The notes under the pieces: generated by a model
Database searches by the model: none
What the model was told of the DNA's origin: nothing
Seen by the model: only the letters and a program-made list of their open reading frames with translations
Program-made: the position numbers and the translations under genes
DNA from: a virus
Length of the DNA: 24,276 nt
IMG/VR virus record: IMGVR_UViG_3300045988_119278
Direction: 5' to 3' (one strand)
Part shown: piece by piece, positions 1 through 24,276 of the stretch
Numbering within the stretch: position 1 is the stretch's first letter
Layout: every line of letters starts with the position of its first letter

Positions 1-119
1 CTCAAAGGAGAAAGCAAAATAAGTTATGGTATTGTCATCATTTATTTGTTTAAAATAATACATATAACAACCTCCTTACTCTACCCAAAAGGCATAGATA
101 TAATAATCTCTTGAACTTA
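1..119. repeat. Terminal overlap copy 1, identical to 24158-24276. Indicates a circular or circularly permuted genome with 24,157 bp unique length.
   Basis: Direct string comparison of the two window ends. The repeat lies inside coding sequence (3' end of CDS 76..507 and 5' end of the CDS annotated at 24065..24220). Confidence 0.95.
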
Positions 120-507
120 TAGAGATAGAAGAAGCATTACTCCACCCTATAGAAATTGTCTGTGTGGTTTTATCATAGTCAATGTAATAACTTATATCAG
201 TAATCTCTCCACCGGTCTGTATCCTTTCCACTATCCCTGTTGAAACATTGTATCTTGTAATAGCACCATTCATTACCATAACAAAAGTATAATTTGTTGG
301 AAGGTTTGTATTAGTTATTGTCTTAGTGCCATTCTTATTTTTTGGCATTGAAAAGCTTGTTGCCATTTGTATATACTTTAATTCCCCGCCACCTGCTTGA
401 ATACCCTAAATAGCAGTAGGTATAGCATCAAGGGTTAATAACTCTGTTCCGCCCGTCTTTTCTCTAATAGCTGAACCAATAGCAGAGAGTTTATCAGTAA
501 GTGCCAT
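76..507 (-). CDS. Structural, fibre-associated protein of unknown function, 143 aa, with 1 in-frame TAG (406-408)
   Basis: ATG at 505-507 overlaps the TGA stop of the upstream CDS. N-terminus is MALTDKLSAIGSAIREKTGGTELLTLDAIPTAI. Track ORF 76..366 is its C-terminal part in the same frame. TAA stop at 76-78. Confidence 0.6.
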
Positions 508-802
508 TCTCAATAACCCCCAATGCTTGATTGATTAATGTATTTACTTGGTCTGCGGTTTGGTAGCCTTTATTTTCAACTTCTGTCATAGTAGCATAAC
601 CACTCAAATCAGGCTTACCAGTTATATCATTCCAAGCAACCCCACCTACAGCAGAAGTATCTACCCATAATTTAATCTTATTATCAGTAGGAGCAACAGC
701 CCCTACTGATATTTCAGTTTTATCATTCACATAAGATTTAATTTGGGAAGACAACTTACTTAAACCGCTACCATTAATAATTTTATTATCAGTAGTTGCC
801 AT
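494..802 (-). CDS. Fibre-like protein carrying a G-Y-Q-T..QV..I motif, 102 aa
   Basis: Intact track ORF with RBS AAGAGGTG upstream of the ATG and a TGA stop. Motif NKGYQTADQVNTLI is shared with CDS 814..1386. Confidence 0.75.
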   Translation of the reverse strand: MATTDNKIINGSGLSKLSSQIKSYVNDKTEISVGAVAPTDNKIKLWVDTSAVGGVAWNDITGKPDLSGYATMTEVENKGYQTADQVNTLINQALGVIENGTY

Positions 803-813
803 AAGCGCACCTC

Positions 814-1386
814 TTAAACTGCGTCAGTCCAAATTTGATTAATTTCCGCATTGGTTAAGAAGTCAAGGCTAACAGAAGTATCTCCTATTACTTCCCACTT
901 GCTATTGATATAAGCATACTCAGTGTAAATATTACCCTCAGTGCCTTGCTCTTTCAATTTAAGATAAATCACATTGGAAGAACCAGTAGCAGGAAGATTC
1001 TCAACAATCTCAAACTTAAATCCACCAACACCACCAATAGCAGAAGCAATAGCGTCCTGAACCTGCTTAGAGGTCTAATAGCCCTTTCCCTCAACTGCGG
1101 TCATTGTAGTATAGCCCTTATCAGTAATTGCGGTTTCTACCTGAGCGCTTGTTTGATATCCTTTACCTGAAATGGCGGTATCTACGTCATTGGCGGTTTG
1201 ATATCCAGCACCATTTGTAAGTTGATTGTTATTAGTAGGAATAGTTGGAGTATTAGCAATGAGAGAATAATCTAACTTACTATCCGCACTAATCTTATCT
1301 TGCTTACTTGCTAAACCCTCTTTGACCTTTTGAGTATAAACTACTAATTGGTCGCCCTTTAATACTTTGTTATCATAACTTGCCAT
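814..1386 (-). CDS. Fibre-like repeat protein, 190 aa, with 1 in-frame TAG (1075-1077)
   Basis: Track ORF 1075..1386 ends at TAG. The same frame stays open to TAA at 814-816. Repeats are GAGYQTANDVDTAI, GKGYQTSAQVETAI, DKGYTT and GKGY[TAG]TSKQVQDAI. C-terminus is ...NVIYLKLKEQGTEGNIYTEYAYINSKWEVIG. Confidence 0.8.
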
Positions 1387-1401
1387 ATTTAAATGTCCTC
1401 C

Positions 1402-1662
1402 TTAATATGTTTGCCAAATGGCTAATATATCTGAGTTAGTGAGACTATCTAAGCCCACAACCTCACTTGAAATTTCTGCTTTCAATTCTTCTTTATCTTT
1501 TGGAGTGTAGTAATCAACACCCTTAACAGGGGTATCACCCTTATCTCCCTTATCCCCCTTATCACCTTTACCGCCTTTATCACCTTTATAGTAATCAACA
1601 CCTAAGTTTAAATTACCATTCAAAGATTCTTCAACAGAGAGAACACCTTTTATTTCAATCAT
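1402..1662 (-). CDS. Collagen-like (G-X-Y) repeat protein, 86 aa; fibre or capsid-decoration candidate
   Basis: Contains GDKGGKGDKGDKGDKGDTP. RBS AGGAGG is present, the ATG overlaps the upstream TGA (ATGA), and the stop is TAA. Confidence 0.8.
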   Translation of the reverse strand: MIEIKGVLSVEESLNGNLNLGVDYYKGDKGGKGDKGDKGDKGDTPVKGVDYYTPKDKEELKAEISSEVVGLDSLTNSDILAIWQTY

Positions 1663-1988
1663 TGTGTTACCTCCTATCCAATTTCAAAAGTGGCAAAGGG
1701 AACAACGGTATAAATCTTACCTCCAAAAGTGGTAAGTTGAATATCATAGCAATATGTTCCAATAGCAAGAGATTTAGTATCATCAGGTAAGAAGTCAATC
1801 ACACCTTTGCTTGCGGTTTTGGCAAAAGCAATCTGACTGTCTGCGGTCTTTCTTACTGTTAGCGTGATTGTATCATCATCAAATAACTATCTCTCTTTGC
1901 CTGTATTGTCATATACCTTAACTTTAAGTGAAGCATTATCGCCCTTAGTTAAGTATATCTTATTTGTTTTCTCATTGATTTTAAACAA
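1659..1988 (-). CDS. Small beta-rich (Ig-like?) structural protein, 109 aa, with 2 in-frame TAG (1887-1889, 1674-1676)
   Basis: RBS AAGGAGG plus a 9-nt spacer and a TTG start. The frame is open apart from TAG and ends in TGA overlapping the next ATG. It is not in the track because TAG splits it into pieces under 60 aa. Confidence 0.6.
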
Positions 1989-2002
1989 GGCTTTCAACCT
2001 CC

Positions 2003-4123: not shown

Positions 4124-5359
4124 TTATAAACCTAAAACCGCTTTATCCAAGGTTTTAAGTCCTGATTTAGTATATATATCTGAGTAAGCATATCTTAACC
4201 CATCAATACCGTGCGAAAACTCGTGCGTGTATTTGTCCTCTTGGTATTCTCCTTGTTTATCCTTTTGATATGAGAAATTGGATAGCTCAGTTATCAGGTT
4301 TTGGCATTTGGAACTAACTATAATGGTATGGTTTTGTAAAAAGGATAAACCTGCTTTAACCGAATCCTTACCTTTGATACAAGGAGCAACATAAAAGCCC
4401 TATTTTTTGAAATAGTCAATGCTTCTTGGTTCTGCGGAATCCATATAAATCTTAGTCTTTGCTAACTCCATTGTGCGGATTGCCTGACTTACAGTATCTA
4501 ACTGCTAACCCCTCTTGTAATACTCATTGAGAACATAGATTGTCTTATTTTGCTTGTCATACAATGTATCAATTATTGTTGTTGGGTCAATAAAGCCCAA
4601 GTCCGCGCCCGCTCTTCTTTCTAATCCAAGAGAGAGAAGATTTTCCGTATCTAAAATAGTTTCCTGCCAATTATGAAATACTAACCCCTCATCCGGCACG
4701 CCCCACTCACCAAAACAATAAACTCTGGCTTTATTTGGGTTTCTTGTTATAAGCTCTTCTAATGAATTTACATACTCCTAAGATAGAAAAGGATTATCCT
4801 TGTATGTTGTCTCACTAAAATAAAAACTTTTGGGCGGATTTACAACACAAAAGTCATAGAGCCAATGCGCTTTGCTTATGGGGTTAAAGGCCATTAGTAT
4901 TTGCTGATTTGGCACGGTGGAGCGCATACGCAAGTTCAACTGCTCCACAATATCCTTGCTTACCTCAAATACTTCCTCAATAAAGATTGTGCCTATATCA
5001 TTGAGAGATAGCAATTTAGTCTCTTCATCCAACCCCATAAAGATAATTTCAGAACCATTTGGGAACTTAATATTAAAGTCCGTTTCTCTGATTTTTACAT
5101 AGGGCAGAATCTACCACTTTGTTAGAATCTCTTTGAATAGGGAGAAACAGGTATTTCTTATTGTTGAGCCATATTTACGGCAAACTAAGATTTTGATTTT
5201 CTCAGAACAAGCCCTAATTATCAATTTCTAAGTGATAAAATAGGACTTGCCTGAACCTGCTGAACCTTTATAGACTTCCCACCTATGAGAGTAGTCCAAA
5301 AGCAAAGGAAATAATGTTTTTGAAAATGCGGACTTGTCTATATTTAAGGTTATTGACAT
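4124..5359 (-). CDS. terL: Terminase large subunit (PBSX/Terminase_6-like), 411 aa, with 5 in-frame TAG (5228, 5111, 4778, 4505, 4400)
   Basis: Walker A KGSAGSGKSYFIT[TAG]KLI. Track fragments 4778..5038 and 4505..4699 are in the same frame. The nuclease end is ...IYMDSAEPRSIDYFKK.GFYVAPCIKGKDSVKAGLSFLQ...HGIDGLRYA. TAA stop at 4124-4126. Confidence 0.93.
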
Positions 5360-5364
5360 TGTGC

Positions 5365-5556
5365 TTACTCTTTCTTATCTATCTTTTGATTCAATTTCTC
5401 AGCCTGAGTGCCAAAATAGAAAGCAGTAATAGTTGTGTAAATGGTAGTAAACTCCTATGGTATCTGCTTGCCCCAAATCAATAAAACGCAGAATACAATA
5501 GTAAGCAATAAGGTAACAATGCTTTTAACTGTAATCAATCTTTTTAATTCAGCCAT
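5365..5556 (-). CDS. Small two-TM membrane protein, 63 aa, with 1 in-frame TAG (5455-5457)
   Basis: GGAG RBS and ATG at 5554-5556. Sequence is MAELKRLITVKSIVTLLLTIVFCVLLIWGKQIP.EFTTIYTTITAFYFGTQAEK..., ending in TAA. It sits between terS and terL. Confidence 0.6.
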
Positions 5557-5560
5557 AAAA

Positions 5561-5932
5561 TCAATCTCCTGTTATGTTTATATGTATATTGTTGTTAAGC
5601 TCCGCCTGAACCTTTTGTGTTTGTAAGCCCGTCTGTTTCTGTAAGAGGTCTAAGGCTTTCAATCTAATATTCTGCGGTGTATCCTCACTAAAAGCCATTT
5701 CTGATAACTCATTAGCAATATGTTCAGGTGTAATGTGGTTTGCTTCAAATATTTCTTTTTCCAACTGACTTATTCTTTCTTTAACTTCTGGCATTTTCAT
5801 TAGGCGTGCTCCGCCTGCTCTTGCTGAATCGTTCTTCTTAGTAGCATATACTTTTTCATAAGCCTTGCCCGCATTATATTTACAAGCAATAAATTCACGG
5901 CAAAACATTTCCTGTTGTGTATTCAGTGCCAT
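5561..5932 (-). CDS. terS: Terminase small subunit, 123 aa
   Basis: Track ORF 5561..5953. I place the start at the ATG following GGAGGTG. Sequence MALNTQQEMFCREFIACKYNAGKAYEKVYATKKNDSARAGGARLMKMPEVKERI matches the Terminase_2-type N-terminus. Stop is TGA. Confidence 0.8.
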   Translation of the reverse strand: MALNTQQEMFCREFIACKYNAGKAYEKVYATKKNDSARAGGARLMKMPEVKERISQLEKEIFEANHITPEHIANELSEMAFSEDTPQNIRLKALDLLQKQTGLQTQKVQAELNNNIHINITGD

Positions 5933-5965
5933 AATCAGCACCTCCAAGAGCAAAAGTAACTCTTT

Positions 5966-6064
5966 TTATTTCTCATTGTAGTCATACCCCATCTTAACAA
6001 GCGCTCCACCAAACAAGCATCCAATAGCAAAAGTAATTGCCCCTGTAATAAACATTCCAATCAT
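5966..6064 (-). CDS. Hydrophobic 32-aa peptide (MIGMFITGAITFAIGCLFGGALVKMGYDYNEK)
   Basis: GAGG RBS, ATG overlapping the upstream TGA (ATGA), and a TAA stop. It is too short for homology support. Confidence 0.4.
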   Translation of the reverse strand: MIGMFITGAITFAIGCLFGGALVKMGYDYNEK

Positions 6065-6162
6065 AATATTACCTCACTTATAATTTTATATTCTTTTAAT
6101 AGTGCGGTCAGTAGTTCTAATTCTGCCACACACTCATTAATTGTGTTGCTAATTGTATCCAT
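6061..6162 (-). CDS. 33-aa protein (MDTISNTINECVAELELLTALLKEYKIISEVIL); first ORF of the long minus-strand operon
   Basis: RBS AAAGGAG with a 7-8 nt spacer and ATG at 6160-6162. The TGA stop overlaps the next ATG. Confidence 0.45.
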   Translation of the reverse strand: MDTISNTINECVAELELLTALLKEYKIISEVIL

Positions 6163-6304
6163 TTTTAATACTCCTTTAATTATAAAATATTTTTTTATCA
6201 AAGTCATGCGGACGGGCAATTAAATTTGCCACGATTTTTTATAACTTTGATAAAGTGTAAGCAAAAACAATTTTTAATTAATTCTGGCTTACTACAATTC
6301 AATA

Positions 6305-6346
6305 TCCAATAGCAAAAGAAATAGAGAAAGTCCAATAGCAAAAGAA
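6305..6346. repeat. Two direct copies of TCCAATAGCAAAAGAA (6305-6320 and 6331-6346), 26-bp period
   Basis: Exact 16-mer duplication in the intergenic region upstream of the structural operon. Related copies occur at 6020-6033 (+), 7237-7249 (-), 22880-22889 (-) and in variant form around 6451-6470. Confidence 0.8.
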
Positions 6347-6376
6347 TTATGTAGTTCTTTCTATTGTATATAATTT

Positions 6377-6841
6377 TTAATTAAGTGCGGTTTTTGTGTT
6401 TTGCCCGCCCTTGTTATACTGTTTTACGTGCTCTATCACCATTTCCGCACTTGCTTTCTTGGCTATTGGATTCACTGTATAATGTATTCCGTCCTCTTTT
6501 GGTATTTGGTAATTCATTATAGGCACATACTTTCTAATCCATTTACCTTCAACAATTAGCAAGTTCTTTTTATTGGGGACATACTCTAACACCTCAAAAC
6601 AAAGGGTATAACCCTGTTGGATTATACCCCTAAATACATCATATTTATGTTCTGGTAAGTTTAGTTTTGTATTAACCTAATGCGCTAAGATTCTTTTTAA
6701 TAAATTACTTGCTTTACCAATATAAATGATAACACCATCTATCTTAATACAATAAATACCCGCTTTATCTAAGTGCGGTTTTTGGTTTTTGATTTCCTCA
6801 TATTGCTATATCATTGTTTTGTAATATATATTATCTTTCAT
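6377..6841 (-). CDS. GIY-YIG nuclease (homing-endonuclease-like), 154 aa, with 2 in-frame TAG (6806-6808, 6677-6679)
   Basis: RBS AAAGGAG and ATG at 6839-6841. Sequence is ...KAGIYCIKIDGVIIYIGKASNLLKRILAH[TAG]VN...LLIVEGKWIRKY. Track ORF 6377..6592 is the C-terminal part in the same frame. Stop is TAA. Confidence 0.8.
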
Positions 6842-6960
6842 TGGGGTTACTCCTTTCTTATTTAAAAGTGTAAAAATTATTTGCGGGCGGAACTCCTATT
6901 TAGTGCTTGTGCGGAAACACCCAGCGGGGAAGTTCCTTATAATTTTCTTTTCCATTCTTG

Positions 6961-7007
6961 TTATATGGGGGCTTCCGCTCTCCAAGGCGGAAAAGCCCAC
7001 CATATAA
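6961..7007. other. Long imperfect GC-rich hairpin (about 20 bp stem, loop TCTCCAAG), preceded by a second stem 6889-6894/6931-6936
   Basis: TTATATGGGGGCTTCCGC / GCGGAAAAGCCCACCATATAA pair with two small bulges. The segment is locally GC-rich in an AT-rich genome. There is no adjacent T-run and no convincing ORF. Confidence 0.55.
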
Positions 7008-7042
7008 CTATACTCTGTATAGTCTCTATAATATTTCTGGTA

Positions 7043-7079
7043 GAAATTTACTACCACATAAAGATGAAATTTACTACCA
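7043..7079. repeat. Direct repeat GAAATTTACTACCA x2 (7043-7056 and 7066-7079), followed by short palindromes up to about 7135
   Basis: Exact 14-mer duplication with a 23-bp period. Nearby inverted repeats are CAACTT-ATA-AAGTTG and CACTTT-TGA-AAGTG. Confidence 0.7.
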
Positions 7080-7146
7080 AGTTTTTGAAAATTTCAACTT
7101 ATAAAGTTGATATTTTACACTTTTGAAAGTGGAAATTTTCCTTTCC

Positions 7147-8713: not shown

Positions 8714-8992
8714 TCAGCAAGTCTTTAAGCGCTCATAGGCAAGGGCAACCGCATAATACTTATCATAAATGTCAGTCTTAGGATTCCTATCTGCTACATC
8801 ACTCATAATAGTATCCTCAAAAACGCACAAAACCACATCTTGATAATCTCCTTCATCAAAGCGTTCCTCAACATAGTTACTATCAAGGCGTTCAAAAACG
8901 CAATCATTTAACAACTCTTCAACTTCTTCTCTCTTGGACGTTTTATCAATAATTTCCTCAACATTCATCTTATATAAGTCATTAACTAACAT
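8714..8992 (-). CDS. Highly acidic 92-aa protein, first gene downstream of the leftward switch promoter
   Basis: Intact track ORF with RBS AAAGGAG and a TGA stop. About 24 of 92 residues are D/E. No in-frame TAG. Confidence 0.7.
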   Translation of the reverse strand: MLVNDLYKMNVEEIIDKTSKREEVEELLNDCVFERLDSNYVEERFDEGDYQDVVLCVFEDTIMSDVADRNPKTDIYDKYYAVALAYERLKTC

Positions 8993-9351: not shown

Positions 9352-9540
9352 ATGAGAATTAGCCTTGATTTGGAAACCAATGAAATTATTGTCCCCAAGA
9401 ACTTCTTTAAGGAGATTGAAAAAAGGAACGAAATGATTGTTAAAATGGGCGGTGAAGCCATTAAACCCATTGACCTTATTAAAAAGTCCTTTGAAGTGGC
9501 TATGAGTAATACGGACAAGAACTTACACGTGCGCGCTTAA
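9352..9540 (+). CDS. Hypothetical 62-aa protein, first rightward gene
   Basis: Track ORF with a promoter upstream, a weak RBS (AAGAGAG) and a TAA stop. The antisense ORF 9309..9518 is hydrophobic, low-complexity and lacks an RBS. Confidence 0.55.
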   Translation: MRISLDLETNEIIVPKNFFKEIEKRNEMIVKMGGEAIKPIDLIKKSFEVAMSNTDKNLHVRA

Positions 9541-9541
9541 T

Positions 9542-9724
9542 ATGGGAGCAAAGGGGACTAAAGTAACCAGTAGAGAGAAAAAGCGTATGTGGGAACTCTA
9601 CCAGTTGGGTTTAACTTTCTCTGCTATTGGTAAGAAAATGCGTCGTTCACCTGATACAATTAGCAGATACGTCCACGAGTATGAAGCCAGCCTAAATGTA
9701 GCCAACCTATTAACGCAAAAATAA
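9542..9724 (+). CDS. Small HTH DNA-binding protein, 60 aa; regulator or excisionase-like candidate
   Basis: Sequence SREKKRMWELYQLGLTFSAIGKKMRRSPDTISRYV has an HTH pattern. The gene starts 2 nt after the previous stop, ends in TAA, and is convergent with the integrase. Confidence 0.7.
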   Translation: MGAKGTKVTSREKKRMWELYQLGLTFSAIGKKMRRSPDTISRYVHEYEASLNVANLLTQK

Positions 9725-9752
9725 AAAGAAGGGGTTTATGCCCCTTCTTTTT
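9724..9752. terminator. Bidirectional hairpin terminator between convergent genes
   Basis: AAAAAGAAGGGG-TTTATG-CCCCTTCTTTTT, with A-run and T-run flanks. The integrase stop codon lies in the loop. Confidence 0.7.
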
Positions 9753-10662
9753 TCATCTTCTCTGTTAGATTGTCTAATGGATTAAATTGAATCTGTAAGT
9801 CATTGCCATAGAGATTGACATAGTGCCTACTCATATCAATGGTGCTATGTCCCAACCAGCCTTGAAGCTGAACCATACCCCCGCCCGCCATTACAAACTT
9901 TTTGGCAAAGGTGTGTCTAAATAAGTGAGCGGAAGTCTTAGAAACCCCTCTTGAAATGTTGTAGGTTGTCAGGGCATTTTGAAAACCCCTCTTATTAAGC
10001 ATTGCGCCCTCACAGGATGGAAACAAAGGGCTATCAGGTGTCCAGTCCCACGTGTCTAAATACTCTCTCAAAACGGCTTCTAAAGCCTTGGAAAGGGGGA
10101 TTAATTGTTGCTTGCGGTTTTTCATCATTCTCAGAAAGATAAAGCCCTTTTCAAAGTCAATGTCCTTTACCCTCAGATTAATCACCGTGCCTACTCTATT
10201 TCCAGTAGCAATGAGGTAATTGACCGCACACCACATACGCCATTCCGTCCACCTATTGGAATCAGGCTTTTTAAGCAATCTGGCAAGTTCCGCATCAGTA
10301 TAAGGCTCTTTCTCTTCCGCATCCTCTTTCATCAGGGTAATTTCAAGGGGTTTCATATACTCCCTTTCAACCATAAACCTGAAAAACACTCTAAGCCCTC
10401 TAATTCTTGTATTTAAGGAAGTGGTTTTCTTACCCGCATCAATAAGAGACACAAGCCAATCCTCATAAACCTGTTGCGTGACCTCATCCACATATTTAAA
10501 TGTTCCAGCAGTAGAGAAGAAGTATTCAATATCTTCCTCATAGTATCTTAGGGTTTCTTCTCTCAGATTCTTCAATTTACAATGCTTGATGAACTCTGAT
10601 TCAGCTTCTACAATTCCTATGCGCTTTTGGGTCTTTGCGTTTTTGATGGTAGTCATTCTCAT
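9736..10662 (-). CDS. int: Tyrosine recombinase / phage integrase, 308 aa, with no in-frame TAG
   Basis: Intact track ORF. The C-terminal catalytic region is ...AHLFRHTFAKKFVMAGGGMVQLQGWLGHSTIDMSRHYVNLY (R..H-x-x-R..H..Y). GGAGG RBS and TAA stop. Confidence 0.93.
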   Translation of the reverse strand: MRMTTIKNAKTQKRIGIVEAESEFIKHCKLKNLREETLRYYEEDIEYFFSTAGTFKYVDEVTQQVYEDWLVSLIDAGKKTTSLNTRIRGLRVFFRFMVEREYMKPLEITLMKEDAEEKEPYTDAELARLLKKPDSNRWTEWRMWCAVNYLIATGNRVGTVINLRVKDIDFEKGFIFLRMMKNRKQQLIPLSKALEAVLREYLDTWDWTPDSPLFPSCEGAMLNKRGFQNALTTYNISRGVSKTSAHLFRHTFAKKFVMAGGGMVQLQGWLGHSTIDMSRHYVNLYGNDLQIQFNPLDNLTEKMKKEGA

Positions 10663-10721
10663 AGATTATTTTCCTCCATAAAATCCAGTTCTCTACCACC
10701 CCAAGGAATCTAATGTAAAAG

Positions 10722-10750
10722 AAAAAAACTCAAGGGAAAAACCCTTGAGT
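10722..10750 (-). terminator. Rho-independent terminator immediately 3' of the tRNA-like segment
   Basis: Perfect 9-bp stem ACTCAAGGG/CCCTTGAGT with a 5-nt loop, followed on the minus strand by T7. Confidence 0.7.
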
Positions 10751-10759
10751 TTCAACACT

Positions 10760-10815
10760 TTGGTGCGCGAGGCGGGACTTGAACCCGCACGTCCGTAATG
10801 AACACTAGAACCTGA
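10760..10815 (-). other. Probable attP core: 3' portion of a type-II tRNA-Leu(CAG)-like gene, from anticodon loop to CCA; not a complete tRNA
   Basis: Minus strand reads TTCAGGT-TCTAG-TGTTCATTACGGACGT-GCGGGTTCAAGTCCCGC-CTCGCGC-A-CCA. It has a T-arm, a variable arm and the 3' acceptor strand. No 5' acceptor strand (GCGCGAG) or matching 5' anticodon stem lies upstream. It is about 100 bp from the integrase. Confidence 0.7.
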
Positions 10816-10952
10816 ATCCCCGTCTGCCTTACTACTTCTGAGAACTCAAGTTTTTCTTACACCAGCTATTCCCCAAGGTGATTAGCTCTAACTTCTCATT
10901 AGAACTATCCAATGGACGTGTCTATTATACCACAGATTCTATTTTTGTCAAC

Positions 10953-10990
10953 AAAAAAAGGGTTATGGCTTTTAACCATAACCCTTTTTT
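10953..10990. terminator. Strong hairpin terminator (bidirectional flanks) after CDS 10992..11255
   Basis: AAAAAAAGGGTTATGG-CTTTTAA-CCATAACCCTTTTTT, a perfect stem. Confidence 0.8.
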
Positions 10991-10991
10991 A

Positions 10992-11255
10992 TTATCCCTC
11001 TAACTCAGCTAATTCAGCTTGAAGTTTAGCAATCATTTCTTTCTTTTTCTCAATGGTTTTGAGTTTCTTCTTATCCTTACTCTGTTCCGCAATAACCGCT
11101 TTAACTTCATCCTTCTCTAAGAACTCTTTAACAAGGTTGCCAATCACACTAGTGGGGGTAGCACCTTCAACGCCTTTACAATAAATGCTGAGGGCTTCAA
11201 AATCCTTAACCGCAATCTTAATCTCAGGGCGCTTTGTTCTTGTTGTGTTAGCCAT
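10992..11255 (-). CDS. 87-aa protein with an RHH-like N-terminus and charged coiled-coil tail, in an autonomous cassette next to attP
   Basis: Intact track ORF with GGAGG RBS, its own promoter (11288-11316) and terminator. Sequence includes KRPEIKIAVKDFEALSIYCKGVEGATPTSVIGNLVKEFL. No in-frame TAG. Confidence 0.75.
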   Translation of the reverse strand: MANTTRTKRPEIKIAVKDFEALSIYCKGVEGATPTSVIGNLVKEFLEKDEVKAVIAEQSKDKKKLKTIEKKKEMIAKLQAELAELEG

Positions 11256-11287: not shown

Positions 11288-11316
11288 ATACTACCTCATT
11301 TACTTGTGATTGTCAA
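11288..11316 (-). promoter_or_regulatory. Sigma-70-like promoter TTGACA-17-TAGTAT
   Basis: Minus strand has TTGACA at 11316-11311, a 17-nt spacer, and TAGTAT at 11293-11288, about 30 nt upstream of the RBS of CDS 10992..11255. Confidence 0.65.
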
Positions 11317-11330
11317 CTAATTTTTTGCCT

Positions 11331-11531
11331 TTATTCCTTAATTTCCTCTTGGATAATAGCAACTTGTTTTTCTAACTGATAAGTGCGTTCTATCAGATTA
11401 TTATGCTTATTAACCTTTTCCTCTAATTCTTTTAATCTATACTCAATCAAAGCAGTAGATTTTCTATTTGCTATCCAAGAACCGCCCAAAGCGCCAATCA
11501 TTCCTAAGATAGCAACAATAATAGCCTACAT
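11331..11531 (-). CDS. Single-pass membrane protein with a coiled coil, 66 aa; lysis-protein (holin/XhlA-like) candidate. TAG is codon 2.
   Basis: AAGGAGG, 7 nt, then ATG TAG GCT... Sequence is M.AIIVAILGMIGALGGSWIANRKSTALIEYRLKELEEKVNKHNNLIERTYQLEKQVAIIQEEIKE. Stop is TAA. It is the last gene of the tail operon. Confidence 0.6.
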
Positions 11532-11543
11532 TTCAAGTCCTCC

Positions 11544-14500
11544 TTAACTAAAGTAAATAATGACACACCCCTAAGCACCAGAAGAACCAGAAGAACCAGA
11601 ACCTCCTGAGCCACCACTACCAGAGTAGATTTTAGGATTGTCATTTTTATAGGGGTTAGAATCAGCGCCATAATTAACATTACCATACATAGCAACACCG
11701 CCAGAAGCGCCACCACCACCGCCACCGCCGTTTCCTCCATTACCACCATTACCATAAGTAGTAGGAGCACTTGGAGCAACAGCAGAAGCACCTTTACCAC
11801 CATCAGCACACCAAGCTGTAAATCTTGGAGACTGTTGAGAACCATAGATTCTTGAAGAATTGCCGTGAGCAGAATTATTACCAGCAGAAGCCCCACCAGA
11901 GCCACCACCACCAGCAACAACACCAATGGTTACATTATTATAGTTTATGTGTCCAAAATCGCTGGCTCCGTAAATATTACCACCACTATAAGTAGTTCCA
12001 TTATAAACAACACTTTTACCAACTTTAGCATTATAGTAGCTCCATTGCATCATACCAGTGCCAGTTACTCTAATAATTTCATAACCGTCACCACCATCAC
12101 CACCAGCTATACCTTCATTACCAATAACGGCATAAGTAGCATTGGTAAACGTGTTTGTGTAACCAGTAGAAGAGGAAGAACCAGTAGCAGAAGAAGCAGT
12201 AGTGCCATTGTAAGTGAATGTAGTATTTCCACCTGCTGAACCTGCGGTATTGGTAGAACCACCCGCACCACCTGAACCAATGCTAATAGTAAATGTGTCA
12301 GTTAATTTTGGAATGATAAAATCTTTCTAAAAGATTTTGCCACCAGAGCCAGCCGTGCCACCTGAGCCACCAGCACCGCCAGAACCATTACTTGCTATAT
12401 CGTATCCTCCATTTAATTTAACAGAAGCAGAACCGCCACCTCTACCAGACGAACCATTTTTACCACCTTTACCGCCCGTTCCGCCACCAATACAAACAAC
12501 TCTAATGTTTCTATGTGTAGCGCCAATACCTGACAAAGTATAACTACCGCCCGCACTAATTACTGTGCTCTTGGTATAATCATAAGTCTTAATTGAAACG
12601 GTAATTGGTTGATTTGCGGTTTGGGTAATTCCGCCATCTGTATAAGAAACAACAATTTGAGTTGTTCCATAAGGCAAAACGCCACTTGGGGAATAAGTAT
12701 AAGTTGTAATTACTTTATTTGTGTTATCAGAATAATAAGCGGTTATTTCCATTCCCTAAGTGTTAAATGATTCAGTATCATAATAGGATTTATATGTTGG
12801 CTCTTGGGTAATTGCTATTGAAGTTAGATAGATAACAACAATAGTCAATGTAGCCGTTTTAGTAATTCCCTTTTTAGTATAAGATACTGTAATTGTTGTA
12901 TCATCTTTTCCAAGAGCGGAAGTAGGTGTGTAAGTATAACCTCTAATTGCTTTACTACTTCCATCGTCAAAACTGGCAACAACAACCATACCTGTATTAT
13001 CAAAAAACTCACCTGCTCTATAAGTCATTTTATCAGGGTTAGTTATTATAGAAATACCAGTAAGATTTGGTGTATTTCCTATTGTTATCTCTTGGATAGT
13101 TGTTTTTGTAATTCCATCCTCAGTATATGAGATTGTAATTTCCGTATCATTATTACTACTAACTGTTTGCGGGCTGTAGGTGTAATTCTCTACAACTTTG
13201 CTTGAACCGTCTGAATAATAGGCTTCTAATACCATACCAGCAAGGCTAATAGTTTCCCCAATCTCATAAGCAGTTTCATCAGGTGGAGTTGTAATTGCTA
13301 TTGTCTTTAATAAGTTCTTAACTACAACGTCTAATTCTGTGCTCTTAACAACTCCCATTTCTCTATAAGTAATAATTACTTTAGTTGTATCCTTGGTAAG
13401 AACACTTGGGCTTACTGAGTAGTTTTTAACAATGGCTTTGTTTCCATCATCGTATGTGGCTTCAATAACCATTCCTGTTTTATCAAAATAATCCCCTGCT
13501 TCATAAGTTGTCTTATTGGGCGGAGTTTTAATAGCAATACTTACTAACTCTCTACTACCATAAATAGGTGGTGGATTATAGCCCAATCTTACTTCAACTT
13601 CACCTTTGGTTATTTGCTGTCCAAAAGTTCCCTCAATGCTCTTAATAATACCTGTGCTTTCCTCTTCAAATTGATTTGGCATAGTTATATTGTCTAAAGG
13701 TTTTTCATCATTCATAACTATTGAGCCTGATAAAGTGCTAGGCGCGTCATAATAAGCCATAACTTTTTCAGCAACAGAGTTAGAATTTGCTAAAGTGATT
13801 AAAGTAGCGTCCTCTACCTTAGCAACCTTTTCTTTACCTTGGTAGTTCTCTTTATCTCTGCTCACAATCAATTTTGAATGTATGTAAGGCTTTCCTTTAA
13901 TGGTAGCACTTGCGGAAGAAGAGACAACCGCATAATTCACACCTACTTCACTATTGAGTAAAGAGCAACCTGAAAAAGTAATACTATGGTGTGGTTCATC
14001 CCAAGTAATAATTGCTCCATTATCAATTACATATCCTTTTGGACTTGTAAAGCTACTTCCTACAATTTCACCAACATAAATATCCTCAGCCTAAGCATTA
14101 TCAACCTTGCTAAATTGATGCTCTATGACTTCAATTCTGCTTGCTGGGGCATTGTAGGTTATCTTACCTGAATCATAAACTCTATTGGCAGGGATTCCAG
14201 TAGGCGTATCAACTGTAAGAGTAGTAAAGTTGATAATACCATCTTTCTTTTTAACACAACCTCCAACAGCAAAGAGAAGTTGTTTTAAATTATCTCTTCT
14301 TGTGGCTACTGGCAACCAACCATAAACCTTAATCTTAGAAAAGATACTGTGCTCAGTATAAGTTATCTTTCCACCAATAATATCTTTAATAATATCACTT
14401 GCGGTTTGGCCTGAGTAAATACCGCCATAGTGGTTTGTATCATCCAATAGGCCAATAGCAGATTGAAGTGAGAAAGTGTATTCATATTTGCTGTTTCTCT

Positions 14501-14762
14501 CTACGTCTTTAAGATAGTAGCGGGCATATAATTTATCATCTTTATAGTATTCAACCTCTGAACCATAAGTAAAGGAGATAAGAGAGGGTGTTGCCCTCTC
14601 ATATCTCACTTTAACAGTCATTGTGTCTATACTTAATTCATCTTCTAACAAACTTGTTTCATTATAGAATGAACCCTCTATGATTTTCCCCTCTCCACTA
14701 TCAACCTAATCAGTAAAGGTTAATGTGATATTTTTATCGTATTTGTATATAACTTTGTTCAT
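11544..14762 (-). CDS. Giant tail tip / fibre protein, 1072 aa: Tal-like N-terminus, four Big_3-type Ig repeats, then glycine-rich C-terminal domains. 5 in-frame TAG (14706, 14091, 12756, 12327, 11571).
   Basis: Track ORFs 14091..14651, 12756..13940, 12327..12752 and 11571..12053 all share one frame and are separated only by TAG. The TAG at 12756 lies inside a Big_3 repeat (..ESFNT.GMEITAYYSDN.. aligned with ..FFDNTGMVVVASFDDG..). ATG at 14760-14762 follows GAGAGG. TAA stop at 11544-11546. Confidence 0.8.
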
Positions 14763-21634: not shown

Positions 21635-22132
21635 TTAATTCACTAATTCAAAATGAAGTCCCTTTAAGGTTTTCTATCTTCCATTAATCATATGACTTAC
21701 AGCACTATAATCAACTCCAAGAGCCAAAGAAGCATCTCTGCCAGATTTATAAACAACTCCTGTTTCTACACATCTTATAGGTTTGCTTATCTTTTGAGAT
21801 GCCTTTTCATTCCGTGTGCCATAATTTATGTTATAACTGCGGGAACACCATTCTAAATTGTTTTCTTTATTATTATCTTTGTTTTCATCCTTATGGTTTA
21901 CACAAGGATAATTGTTTGGGTTTGGTATAAAATGAAGCGCAACCAATCTACTAACCTATTCTCTTTTTACTTTGCCATTAATAGCATACAAGCAAACAGT
22001 GTGATAGCCTTTTTGGTTTTTATGATGCTTCAAATATATTTGTCTTTTCTTGCTCCAAACCCTACCCATATTACTAATCTAATAGTTTGGGTATCCTTTA
22101 ATATCCATCCAGATTTCATTGTTCTCCAACAT
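21635..22132 (-). CDS. HNH homing endonuclease with a NUMOD4-like N-terminus, 165 aa, with 3 in-frame TAG (22081-22083, 21953-21955, 21674-21676)
   Basis: Sequence is MLENNEIWMDIKGYPNY[TAG]ISNMGRVWS...VSRLVALHFIPNPNNYPCVNHKDENKDNNKENNLEW...HMINGR[TAG]KTLKGLHFELVN. GGAGG RBS and TAA stop. It is inserted between the scaffold and capsid genes. Confidence 0.88.
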
Positions 22133-22872: not shown

Positions 22873-23061
22873 TTAGTCTGCTATTGGAACTTCAATGTAG
22901 TTATCAATACTATCATTAGAGCCAATGAATAAGGTTCTAACATAGAGGTGTTCTTGCTCTTCTTCCCCTTTTTCATTGGTGTGGCTTTTTGGTTCTCTCC
23001 AATCAAAAACTTTTCCTTTATCACTATCATATCTGATTAAATCAAAACTTTTTGCTTTCAT
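22873..23061 (-). CDS. Hypothetical 62-aa protein
   Basis: Intact track ORF with AAGGAG RBS and a TAA stop, followed by a terminator. Confidence 0.6.
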   Translation of the reverse strand: MKAKSFDLIRYDSDKGKVFDWREPKSHTNEKGEEEQEHLYVRTLFIGSNDSIDNYIEVPIAD

Positions 23062-23073
23062 ATAACATTCTCC

Positions 23074-24084
23074 TTATACAAATGATACAGTCCATCCTTT
23101 TGCGGTTGCTACTGCTATTTCTTCCTCAGTCATAGTGTTAATAGCTCCACCGTCAGTTTTAGCTCCTTGAGCGCCTTCAAATTTAATTGTATTAGTTCCT
23201 CCTGCTGTAGCTAAATAGGCACTTGTGTCAGGTAGTGAGTTAATAGTTTCTACAGCTGAAATGCGATTATAACGGGAATAATTTATATCCGAAGTCCAAC
23301 TATCAGGGTCATCTTTTAAAGCCTAATATGTAGCATCGTCTTTAATTTGCTTTGTTGATGAAAAACCATACTTGTCGGCATAAGAACCATAACCAACGGT
23401 TTTAGTTAAATCTATTATTTGGCTTTTCCACTCTACTACCTAATTAGGGTCAAAAGTTAAGCGCTTTAAACGCTAACACAGGTCAAAAGTAGAAACAAAC
23501 GCATTATAAGTCATTTTACCACTCATTATTGGAGCACCTAACCCAATGATTTCATCTAAAACATAACAAAAACGGAATCCATTAAAGTATATTAAATTAC
23601 GCTTACTACTATTTTCTAATTTAGTTAATTCTAATACTTCTGTAGGGATTTTTCTTAAATATTTAGCACTATAAAAGCAATTATCTAATCCAACTTGTTT
23701 AAATGAACCTGCTGGCGGTAATACAAAAACATTGTCTAAAGTCTAAATTTTTGAATTTTCAATAATATTATTCATACTTAAAGAGTAGTTATTTCCGACT
23801 GAATTTAAGTTTATTTTAAAGGGGATAGAAGTTAATTTTGAATTATAAAACATATAATTACAATAGCGGACTCTTTTTAATTGTATTTTATCTTTATACT
23901 TTGTTATAAACCAATCCCAAATACCATTATAATTAAAATAAGAAAAATTAAAATCAGTATAACCAGTGGTATTTCCAAAAGTCAATTCCTATTGAGTAGG
24001 AGCGGGCATATCACTTATTTCGTAGGCAACATTCTTACTTGCCACTTTCCATTCATTACCATCTTTATATTTCAGCACTGGCAT
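23074..24084 (-). CDS. BspA/DUF285-type leucine-rich-repeat protein (adhesin or receptor-binding candidate), 336 aa, with 5 in-frame TAG (23989, 23743, 23473, 23440, 23323)
   Basis: AAGGAGG RBS and ATG at 24082-24084. LRR-like units are ..RVRYCNYMFYNSKLTSIPFKINL.., ..NCFYSAKYLRKIP.. and ..TFDLC.RLKRLTF.. The C-terminus is ..MTEEEIAVATAKGWTVSFV. TAA stop at 23074. Confidence 0.75.
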
Positions 24085-24220
24085 TTGCTTCATCCTCCTT
24101 AATAGCAAGTATGTATTCTTCTTTTGTCATAGGATACATATTACCACTCACTTTTGGCTCAAAGGAGAAAGCAAAATAAGTTATGGTATTGTCATCATTT
24201 ATTTGTTTAAAATAATACAT
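24065..24220 (-). CDS. Hypothetical 51-aa protein. Its 5' end lies in the terminal overlap and is also seen at 1..63.
   Basis: GGAGG RBS and ATG at 24218-24220 (equivalent to 61-63). Sequence is MYYFKQINDDNTITYFAFSFEPKVSGNMYPMTKEEYILAIKEDEANASAEI. Stop is TAA. Confidence 0.5.
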   Translation of the reverse strand: MYYFKQINDDNTITYFAFSFEPKVSGNMYPMTKEEYILAIKEDEANASAEI

Positions 24221-24276
24221 ATAACAACCTCCTTACTCTACCCAAAAGGCATAGATATAATAATCTCTTGAACTTA
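24158..24276. repeat. Terminal overlap copy 2, identical to 1-119
   Basis: Direct string comparison. Confidence 0.95.

What the first reader, a model, noticed from the sequence alone, without database searches (positions are those of the whole stretch)
11331..11531. Candidate lysis gene gated by TAG as its second codon
After a perfect AAGGAGG and a 7-nt spacer, the ORF begins ATG TAG GCT. It encodes a 66-aa protein with one N-terminal TM helix (AIIVAILGMIGALGGSWIA) and a charged coiled coil. It sits at the 3' end of the tail operon, where lysis genes normally lie.

In the standard code this gene produces only Met. With suppression it yields the full membrane protein. An internal in-frame ATG at codon 11 would give a product with a truncated TM helix. 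This is the clearest single-gene example here of recoding acting as a switch on a potentially lethal function.
Basis: partly seen in the sequence, partly recalled or inferred. Interest (0 to 1): 0.65.

Follow-up and report, generated by a model that had tools for sequence, protein, structure and literature searches.

The report
Lysis-type membrane gene with amber codon
A small membrane-anchored coiled-coil gene of a gut phage that reads the TAG stop codon as glutamine really does begin ATG-TAG and belongs to a family usually found beside phage lysis genes, but its TAG is one of 64 spread over most genes of an already described kind of recoded phage, so it is an ordinary instance and not a special switch.

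Summary
On the minus strand, AAGGAGG (11545..11539) and a 7-nt spacer precede ATG TAG GCT. The ORF 11531..11331 encodes 66 aa: one N-terminal TM helix and a charged helix.

The gene is real. It has more than 1100 homologs and matches phrog_1863 (function unknown). Its similarity to XhlA/SPP1 gp24.1 holin partners is weak and below threshold. In standard-code Firmicutes phages, homologs sit after the tail genes and just before holin and endolysin.

The window is a complete ~24.2-kb temperate siphovirus with TAG read as Gln. It integrates into tRNA-Leu(CAG) of Hominicoprocola-like Oscillospiraceae and matches the published 'Topaz' clade. That paper also proposed that recoding gates late and lysis genes.

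TAG occupies 64 codons in 25 of 34 genes, including the replication initiator. It is placed about randomly among Gln codons.

Codon-2 TAG is kept in all 15 aligned relatives. However, about half of TAG sites are kept at that divergence, and only two divergent lineages were sampled.

The genome has no suppressor tRNA, no recognisable holin and no endolysin. XhlA-type proteins are not lethal alone.

Verdict: a new member of a known kind. A gene-specific switch is not supported.

The parts
11539..11545 (-). Shine-Dalgarno AAGGAGG. Its first two bases are the last two of the TAA stop (11546..11544) of the upstream tail gene.
   Evidence: All 9 AAGGAGG copies in the window are on the minus strand; 3.5 are expected by chance.
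11331..11531 (-). CDS of the 66-aa membrane/coiled-coil protein (phrog_1863, XhlA-like), including the TAA stop at 11333..11331.
   Evidence: phrog_1863, E = 3.3e-9; more than 1100 homologs.
11526..11528 (-). In-frame TAG at codon 2, read as a sense codon (Gln).
   Evidence: TAG is present in all 15 aligned relatives, while codon 3 (GCT/ACT/GGT) and the spacer vary.
11469..11525 (-). Codons 3-21: the predicted N-terminal transmembrane helix AIIVAILGMIGALGGSWIA.
   Evidence: KD 2.11; helix; conserved hydrophobic block in 32 homologs.
11334..11453 (-). Codons 27-66: charged amphipathic helix carrying the family motif L36 E37 K39 V40 K42 H43 N44 R49 E54.
   Evidence: (invariant and near-invariant columns).
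11499..11501 (-). In-frame ATG at codon 11, the start of the 56-aa standard-code ORF. Probably not used.
   Evidence: There is no TM in the product. Only an AGGA directly abutting the ATG is available as SD (read by eye). Position 11 is Phe in the P0094/P0098 relatives.
11544..14762 (-). Upstream 1072-aa tail tip/fibre protein (Big_3 repeats, Gly-rich C-terminus). It has a TAG at codon 1064 (11573..11571), 8 sense codons before its TAA.
   Evidence: codon 1064 is GAT in the P0099 group; the following G-C-V-I-I-Y-(F/Y)-S tail is conserved there, so the TAG is read through.
10992..11255 (-). Downstream TAG-free 87-aa gene with its own promoter-like site (11316..11288). It is swapped together with the integrase type in relatives, so it is a probable excisionase/RDF. 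It marks the end of the late operon.
5365..5556 (-). 63-aa membrane protein between TerS and TerL, with one strong hydrophobic segment, a second weaker one read by eye, and a charged C-terminus. It is the only other small membrane protein in the genome and a candidate holin partner. This role is inferred, not shown.
   Evidence: phrog_13256, unknown function; 685 unnamed homologs.

Best explanation
The ORF is the last gene of the late (head-tail) operon of a temperate, TAG->Gln recoded siphovirus of Oscillospiraceae. It encodes a 66-aa bitopic membrane protein with an N-terminal TM anchor. The N-R-K residues follow the TM directly, so the charged coiled-coil helix should lie in the cytoplasm by the positive-inside rule.

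It belongs to a large Firmicutes-phage family (phrog_1863). That family usually sits between the tail genes and the holin-endolysin pair, and resembles the XhlA/gp24.1 class of holin accessory proteins. The most likely role is to act in the membrane with a holin-type partner at the end of the cycle. The partner here may be the 63-aa protein at 5365..5556.

The TAG at codon 2 is an ordinary Gln codon of this phage's code. The gene is silent whenever TAG is read as stop, but so are about three quarters of the phage's genes. The dependence on suppression is genome-wide and not gene-specific.

Shown: gene reality, architecture, family, synteny in relatives, recoding, conservation of the TAG, host and attachment site. 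Inferred: lysis function, partner, topology, and Gln identity at this particular codon.
For: **Recoding**
- Stop-to-stop ORFs on the minus strand cover 7146 aa with TAG read through, against 4174 aa in the standard code.
- There are 64 in-frame TAGs in 25 of 34 genes.
- TAG interchanges with CAA/CAG among relatives.
- Tail-gene TAG 1064 is replaced by GAT in relatives, and the downstream residues stay conserved.

**Gene reality and family**
- phrog_1863, E = 3.3e-9; more than 1100 homologs.
- Conserved motif LE.KV.KHN..I.R....E.
- 11 of 32 homologs give sub-threshold XhlA hits.

**Synteny: homolog, then holin, then endolysin**
- Blautia phage Montmirail, Enterococcus phiEf11, Streptococcus SW15 and Monoglobales phage CHVD 5762.
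- Proteins that read by eye as amidases lie directly downstream in L017, L036 and L054.
- Enterococcal XhlA-domain proteins always accompany a holin (PMC10630273).

**Architecture**
-.

**The TAG is not special**
- TAG makes up 22% of Gln codons. 25 genes carry a TAG against 23.6 expected. There is no significant 5' bias.
- In the two divergent lineages, window TAG sites are retained as TAG in 18 of 31 and 6 of 13 aligned cells.

**Phage type and host**
- 119-bp terminal repeat; attR and attL junctions in tRNA-Leu(CAG).
- The host flank is 97.9% identical to Hominicoprocola fusiformis.
- The phage matches the published Topaz prophage description.
Against: - No holin or endolysin HMM hit exists anywhere in this genome, and none lies next to the gene. 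The lysis role therefore rests on synteny in other phages.
- Pfam XhlA hits in relatives score 19-26 bits against a cutoff of 34.7 and cover only the coiled-coil part.
- The window protein itself has no XhlA hit.
- hhalign against SPP1 gp24.1 gives a probability of 1.3%.
- The TM is N-terminal, whereas XhlA/gp24.1 have it at the C-terminus.
- In some relatives (L027, L045, L058) the homolog is followed by large fibre-like or unrelated genes.
- TAG at codon 2 is kept in 15 of 15 relatives, which leaves room for selection on that codon.
Confidence: 0.6

Rival explanations
1. Gene-specific gate. The ATG-TAG 'start-stop' is selected as a zero-leak lock on a dangerous membrane protein. In a standard-code cell the strong SD loads ribosomes that terminate at once. 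Only after a code switch is the protein made, and this times lysis.
For: - TAG at codon 2 is present in all 15 aligned relatives from three sublineages. Codon 3, the spacer and the upstream gene vary, and no relative has CAA or CAG at that codon.
- The position is the earliest possible, so no truncated peptide is made.
- The published hypothesis holds that lysis genes are preferentially recoded.
Against: - About half of TAG sites are retained at the same divergence, and only two independent divergent lineages were sampled, so 15 of 15 is not significant.
- TAG is not enriched in this gene or at 5' ends.
- Early genes such as the replication initiator (TAG at codon 10) are equally 'gated'.
- No suppressor is encoded that could time a switch.
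- XhlA-type proteins are harmless alone.
- The nearest outgroup has ATG TCA GAA at this position and appears to function without the TAG.
Confidence: 0.15
2. The protein is not a lysis protein. It would instead be a membrane-anchored product of the tail/late module with another role, such as superinfection exclusion, DNA-injection blocking or an assembly factor, and it merely neighbours lysis cassettes.
For: - phrog_1863 has no assigned function.
- This phage has no adjacent holin or lysin.
- In L027, L045 and L058 the homolog is followed by fibre-like or unrelated genes.
- GenBank records often label enterococcal homologs as tail fibre or hypothetical.
Against: - Placement directly upstream of holin and endolysin recurs in four unrelated host genera.
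- The motif and coiled-coil similarity to XhlA recurs in 11 of 32 members.
- A cytoplasmic coiled coil on a single TM is the XhlA/gp24.1 layout apart from which end carries the TM.
Confidence: 0.2
3. Translation really starts at the ATG of codon 11. This gives a soluble 56-aa coiled-coil protein in the standard code, possibly as a second dual-start isoform.
For: - The standard-code ORF 11331..11501 exists and is called as a 56-aa protein in databases.
- SPP1 gene 24.1 and lambda S have dual starts.
Against: - The only SD-like bases (AGGA) abut the ATG with no spacer (read by eye).
- Met11 is Phe in the P0094/P0098 group and V or L in other homologs.
- Codons 3-10 are conserved as protein.
- The product would lack the TM.
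Confidence: 0.04

Closest known systems
XhlA of Bacillus subtilis PBSX and gp24.1 of phage SPP1 (Pfam PF10779), holin accessory or second-holin proteins
   Same: - A small (66-92 aa) bitopic protein with one TM and a charged coiled coil.
- Encoded at the tail/lysis junction.
- A short shared motif (L-E-x-K/R-x-x-x-H). Relatives give sub-threshold PF10779 hits.
- gp24.1 is the late-transcribed component thought to set lysis timing.
   Different: - The TM is N-terminal here and C-terminal in XhlA/gp24.1.
- The Pfam score is below the gathering cutoff, and the window protein has no hit.
- hhalign probability is 1.3%.
- No XhlB/gp26-type holin or endolysin is recognisable in this phage.
'Topaz' clade of TAG-recoded temperate gut phages, and the hypothesis that recoding gates late/lysis genes (Borges et al., bioRxiv 10.1101/2021.08.26.457843)
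   Same: - A circular genome of about 24 kb, with TAG in frame in nearly all structural genes.
- The integrase is TAG-free.
- A prophage in a standard-code Oscillospiraceae host, with a large GC jump at the borders.
   Different: - Their curated prophage abuts tRNA-Thr; this one inserts in tRNA-Leu(CAG).
- Clade membership was not tested by phylogeny here.
- The paper does not, in the text read, single out this gene or an ATG-TAG start.
'XhlA-domain holin-like' proteins of Enterococcus and Streptococcus siphoviruses (for example phiEf11 PHIEF11_0024, SW15_024)
   Same: Direct sequence homologs, 39-47% identical over 77-92% of the query, with the same N-terminal TM and motif. They lie immediately upstream of holin and endolysin.
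   Different: - Those phages use the standard code and have no TAG in the gene.
- They carry an additional C-terminal K-V-A-N-H-R-I-x-D-L-E helix segment that is missing here.
- Their function is also untested.
Dual-start holin/antiholin regulation (lambda S105/S107; SPP1 24.1/24.1*)
   Same: Control of a lysis membrane protein is exerted in the first few codons of the gene.
   Different: Here there is no conserved second start. The early codon is a recoded stop shared with most genes of the phage, not a gene-specific device.

Membership tests
phrog_1863 (PHROGs, function unknown) | Significant match to the family HMM over most of its length | tested here: met
   E = 3.3e-9, 37.5 bits, residues 2-65 on profile positions 5-89 of 97.
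XhlA (Pfam PF10779) | Score at or above the Pfam gathering cutoff (34.7 bits) | tested here: not met
   The window protein has no hit at E <= 1. Homologs score 19-26 bits and only on profile positions 3-47 of 67.
XhlA (Pfam PF10779) | N-terminal coiled coil with a C-terminal transmembrane helix | tested here: not met
   The TM is at residues 3-21 here. SPP1 gp24.1 has it at residues 68-86, and the literature places it at the C-terminus.
XhlA (Pfam PF10779) | Homology to a characterised member by profile comparison | tested here: not met
   hhalign of the 32-sequence family profile against SPP1 gp24.1: probability 1.3%, 20 aligned columns.
XhlA (Pfam PF10779) | Encoded next to a two-TM holin and an endolysin, and needed with them for lysis | tested here: inconclusive
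   Adjacent holin and lysin are seen in four annotated relatives but not in this phage. The requirement for lysis cannot be tested here.
Canonical phage holins | Match to a holin family model | tested here: not met
   No Pfam holin family matches. The best PHROG holin is phrog_1296 at E = 0.029. NCBIfam gives nothing.
Canonical phage holins | At least one TM plus a charged hydrophilic C-terminal domain | tested here: met
   TM at residues 3-21, then 9 K/R and 9 D/E. A single long helix is predicted.
Canonical phage holins | Membrane permeabilisation or lethality on expression | not testable with these tools
   This needs expression of the TAG->CAA allele.
Code-15 (TAG->Gln) recoded phage, Topaz-like | In-frame TAGs whose read-through restores full-length conserved genes | tested here: met
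   7146 aa against 4174 aa in long ORFs. Terminase, portal, capsid, tape measure and other genes are restored.
Code-15 (TAG->Gln) recoded phage, Topaz-like | TAG interchanges with CAA/CAG at homologous sites | tested here: met
   Across the aligned relatives, window CAG sites read TAG in 20 aligned cells. Window TAG sites read CAA or CAG in 11 cells.
Code-15 (TAG->Gln) recoded phage, Topaz-like | Lysogeny genes free of TAG | tested here: met
   The integrase has 10 Gln codons and no TAG. The 87-aa gene and the two plus-strand genes are also TAG-free. Within this one genome alone P = 0.08 for the integrase.
Code-15 (TAG->Gln) recoded phage, Topaz-like | Phage-encoded suppressor tRNA(CUA) | tested here: not met
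   ARAGORN at default and at 90% threshold finds none. The Rfam tRNA model at E <= 1 finds none, in the window and in 8 relatives. The literature finds such tRNAs in only 40% of TAG-recoded genomes.
Code-15 (TAG->Gln) recoded phage, Topaz-like | Placement in the Topaz clade by terminase phylogeny | not tested
   The reference sequences of that study are not held here. The assignment rests on size, host family, code and lifestyle.
Recoding-gated lysis gene (published concept) | Preferential use of the recoded stop in this gene relative to the rest of the genome | tested here: not met
   1 TAG among 4 Gln codons against a genome mean of 22%. P(at least 1) = 0.64. There is no 5' bias genome-wide.

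The most novel reading that the evidence does not exclude
The conserved SD-ATG-TAG 'start-stop' is under selection as a zero-leak lock on the final, timing-setting membrane component of lysis. The phage carries no suppressor tRNA, no recognisable holin and no endolysin. Release would then depend on a trans-acting code switch supplied by the host or a co-resident element, with this small protein as the trigger.
Probability: 0.1. Interest if true: 0.65.

Novelty: new member of a known kind. Interest (0 to 1): 0.3.

Why it matters
The result gives a concrete, well-delimited example of how code-15 phage genes are missed or truncated by standard annotation. Databases hold this gene both as a full-length 66-aa product and as a 56-aa fragment without the TM.

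It links a large unnamed family (phrog_1863) to the lysis junction of Firmicutes phages. It also places the phage on a cultivable host genus (Hominicoprocola), which could make the recoding hypothesis testable.

The larger open questions lie around the gene, not in it. One is who decodes TAG for a 24-kb phage without a tRNA. The other is how that phage lyses a Gram-positive cell without a recognisable endolysin.

Tried and rejected
- **Holin or XhlA identity by HMM.** Pfam, PHROGs and NCBIfam on the protein and on 32 homologs gave only phrog_1863 and sub-threshold XhlA hits. A PDB sequence search gave only generic coiled coils. hhalign against SPP1 gp24.1 was negative.
- **A tRNA or tmRNA-like gene near the integrase as a possible suppressor.** The Rfam tmRNA 3'-end hit, a perfect promoter and a low-threshold ARAGORN 'tRNA-SeC(tca)' call all turned out to be the attP copy of the 3' 58 nt of host tRNA-Leu(CAG). 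Its anticodon stem is broken, so it is not a suppressor.
- **Suppressor tRNA in host flanks or in 857 kb of Oscillospiraceae loci.** None was found.
- **Endolysin or holin elsewhere in the genome.** None was found by Pfam, PHROGs or PDB sequence search. The 63-aa membrane protein has only unnamed homologs.
- **5' enrichment of TAG as a genome-wide gating signature.** Not significant. One of four statistics reached P = 0.014 uncorrected; the others were 0.12-0.28.
- **Close relatives in GenBank phage records.** None were found by megablast.
- **First structure job.** It was repeated with database proteins.

Full report
**1. The observation**

All genes but two lie on the minus strand. There the sequence reads ...TTAGT TAA GGAGG ACTTGAA ATG TAG GCT ATT ATT GTT....

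- AAGGAGG is at 11545..11539, the 7-nt spacer at 11538..11532, ATG at 11531..11529 and TAG at 11528..11526. The ORF ends with TAA at 11333..11331.
- Read with TAG as a sense codon, the ORF gives 66 aa.
- Residues 3-21 (AIIVAILGMIGALGGSWIA) have a mean hydropathy of 2.11. The rest carries 9 K/R and 9 D/E.
- AlphaFold2 with 16 homologs predicts one continuous helix, residues 2-65, pLDDT 77.
- The in-frame ATG at codon 11 gives the 56-aa standard-code ORF listed. That product has no TM-like window.
- AAGGAGG occurs nine times in the window, always on the coding strand. Shuffles give 3.5 on average and never nine.

**2. What the window is**

- The first and last 119 bases are identical, so this is a complete, circularly assembled genome of about 24,157 bp.
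- Reading TAG through raises the amino acids in long minus-strand ORFs from 4174 to 7146. Reading TGA or TAA through does not have that effect.
- Under that code the genome is a compact siphovirus. It encodes small and large terminase, portal, a Mu-F-like head protein, scaffold, capsid, connectors, tail tube, chaperones, tape measure, a DUF6711 protein and a 1072-aa tail protein with Big_3 repeats. The 66-aa gene follows, then an 87-aa gene, a tyrosine integrase, two small plus-strand genes, and a replication/regulation block.
- There are 64 in-frame TAGs in 25 of 34 genes. CAA occurs 154 times and CAG 67 times.
- Among relatives, TAG interchanges with CAA and CAG at homologous sites.
- The tail gene's TAG at codon 1064 is GAT in one lineage, and the eight residues after it stay conserved there. 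TAG is therefore translated.

**3. Host and lifestyle**

- A 48-kb metagenomic contig (L066) carries the phage up to window position ~10761. It then continues into 58-62% GC DNA with trpA/B-like, MATE, spoIIM, gltX and trpS genes.
- The junction is the 3' end of a tRNA. The 28-nt core is found in 120+ Oscillospiraceae genomes. There it is the 3' end of tRNA-Leu(CAG).
- The phage carries the last 58 nt of that tRNA (10761..10818).
- Four other lysogen contigs show the other junction, with intact tRNA-Leu(GAG) and tRNA-Leu(CAG) about 100 nt upstream of the integrase.
- The L066 host flank is 97.9% identical to Hominicoprocola fusiformis CLA-AA-H269.
- This matches the 'Topaz' clade of Borges et al.: 22 +/- 3 kb, TAG-recoded, a prophage in a standard-code Oscillospiraceae host, and an integrase without TAG. 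That paper proposes that recoding keeps late and lysis genes silent until a code switch.
- I could not test clade membership by phylogeny.

**4. What the gene is**

- The protein matches phrog_1863 (unknown function, E = 3.3e-9). It matches no Pfam or NCBIfam family.
- It has more than 1100 homologs in public data. An alignment of 32 diverse members shows a hydrophobic N-terminal block and the motif L36-E37-x-K39-V40-x-K42-H43-N44...R49...E54.
- Eleven of the 32 give XhlA (PF10779) hits. These score only 19-26 bits against a cutoff of 34.7, and only over the coiled-coil half of the model.
- A profile comparison with the characterised SPP1 gp24.1 is negative, with probability 1.3%.
- XhlA and gp24.1 carry their TM at the C-terminus. 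Here it is at the N-terminus.
- Both layouts would still place the coiled coil in the cytoplasm. This follows from the N-R-K residues right after the TM and is an inference.
- The strongest functional lead is position. In Blautia phage Montmirail, Enterococcus phiEf11, Streptococcus SW15 and Monoglobales phage CHVD 5762, the homolog follows the tail genes and precedes holin and endolysin.
- Several IMG/VR relatives have proteins directly downstream that read by eye as amidases.
- A survey of enterococcal phages reports that such XhlA-domain proteins always accompany a holin.
- This is not universal. In L027, L045 and L058 other genes follow.

**5. What is missing in this phage**

- Downstream of the gene there is only a TAG-free small gene and the integrase.
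- That pair is exchanged as a unit among relatives: 87+308, 121+314, 96+311 and 97+291 aa. The small gene is therefore probably the excisionase, and the 66-aa gene ends the late operon.
- No ORF of the genome matches any holin or peptidoglycan-hydrolase model.
- The only other small membrane protein is a 63-aa protein between the terminase genes. Its 685 homologs are unnamed.
- No tRNA is found in the window or in eight relatives by ARAGORN or Rfam.
- A tempting promoter-plus-tRNA-like element next to the integrase is the attP copy of tRNA-Leu with a broken anticodon stem.

**6. Is the TAG a gene-specific gate?**

For:
- SD-ATG-TAG is present in all 15 aligned relatives and in every close relative examined.
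- These include two lineages at 75-76% protein identity that have different spacers, a different third codon (GCT, ACT, GGT) and, in one of them, different tail genes upstream.
- The next outgroup has ATG TCA GAA.

Against:
- In those same two divergent lineages, window TAG sites are retained as TAG in 18 of 31 and 6 of 13 aligned cells. Retention at one site in two lineages is therefore unremarkable.
- TAG makes up 22% of Gln codons. The number of genes carrying a TAG (25) equals the random expectation (23.6). There is no significant bias towards 5' ends.
- A gene with four Gln codons has a 64% chance of carrying a TAG.
- Probable early genes are recoded too, for example the replication initiator at codon 10.
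- XhlA and gp24.1 are each harmless alone and kill only with their holin partner.
- Without a phage-encoded suppressor there is no visible timer.
- The ATG at codon 11 is not conserved and has no spaced SD, so a dual-start scheme is unlikely.

**7. Conclusion**

The finding is a correct reading of a real gene. Its best description is an XhlA-like (phrog_1863) membrane-anchored coiled-coil protein at the end of the late operon of a Topaz-type, TAG->Gln recoded temperate phage of Hominicoprocola-like Oscillospiraceae.

Its dependence on TAG read-through is real but is shared with most of the genome, and it falls under a published hypothesis. A special role for the ATG-TAG start is not excluded, but nothing here supports it.

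Two things remain puzzling: the absence of any suppressor tRNA, and the absence of any recognisable holin or endolysin in a complete phage genome. Both are recorded below.

Noticed in passing
window 1..119 and 24158..24276: An exact 119-bp direct terminal repeat. The window is a complete, circularly assembled phage genome of about 24,157 bp.
   Followed up: yes
window 10674..10828 (minus strand); L066, L152, L209-L213: attP. The last 58 nt of Oscillospiraceae tRNA-Leu(CAG) lie at 10761..10818. Homology to the Hominicoprocola fusiformis locus extends 146 nt, through the terminator, almost to the integrase start. attR and attL junctions are seen in lysogen contigs.
   Followed up: yes
window 10924..10951 (minus strand) and 10725..10753: A 12/12 sigma-70 consensus promoter (TTGACA-16-TATAAT with an extended TG) fires into about 170 nt that end in the truncated tRNA-Leu copy with CCA. 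A strong terminator follows. This could be a small RNA of unknown function. At 80% threshold ARAGORN calls it 'tRNA-SeC(tca)', probably spuriously.
   Followed up: partly
whole window: The genome has no tRNA of any kind, although 25 of 34 genes need TAG read-through. The source of suppression is unknown. The host family uses TAG as a stop in about 13% of long ORFs.
   Followed up: partly
whole window: No recognisable endolysin or canonical holin is present in a complete genome of a phage of a Gram-positive-type host. Seven ORFs in 76..1997 and 22873..24108 have no family assignment.
   Followed up: partly
window 5365..5556 (minus strand): A 63-aa membrane protein with a charged C-terminus is wedged between the small and large terminase genes. 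It is conserved in relatives and has 685 unnamed homologs (phrog_13256). It is a possible holin in an unusual place.
   Followed up: partly
window 11571..11573 and 11544..11546 (minus strand): The tail gene has a TAG eight sense codons before its TAA. The extension G-C-V-I-I-Y-F-S is conserved in a lineage where the TAG is GAT. The TAA overlaps the SD of the 66-aa gene, which suggests translational coupling.
   Followed up: yes
window 9736..11255; L065, L199, L202, L205: The small gene plus integrase downstream of the 66-aa gene are swapped as a cassette among close relatives (87+308, 121+314, 96+311 and 97+291 aa). The L199/L200 relatives show no integrase in the fetched stretch.
   Followed up: partly
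window 9352..9540 and 9542..9724 (plus strand): These are the only plus-strand genes: two small TAG-free ORFs (62 and 60 aa, the second HTH-like), convergent with the integrase. They are probably lysogeny regulators readable in the standard code.
   Followed up: no
window 8714..8992 (minus strand): A TAG-free, very acidic 92-aa protein with no family match lies at the head of the early region. It could be a DNA mimic or anti-defence protein, or speculatively a factor acting on termination.
   Followed up: no
window 21635..22132 and 6377..7057 (minus strand): Two probable homing endonuclease genes. One is HNH/NUMOD-like by eye and is inserted between the scaffold and capsid genes. The other is GIY-YIG (weak Pfam hit in relatives, phrog_1111). 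Both contain TAG codons.
   Followed up: no
L066 10001..19056 versus window: The phage has 35% GC and its host flank 58-62% GC. This is an unusually large gap for a temperate phage and agrees with the low-GC route to recoding proposed in the literature.
   Followed up: partly
L021 (IMGVR_UViG_3300001517_000005): A second TAG-recoded phage, judged by ORF lengths with and without TAG read-through. It carries a homolog of the 66-aa gene with its TAG at a different place, in the L-E-Q-L-E motif and not at codon 2.
   Followed up: no
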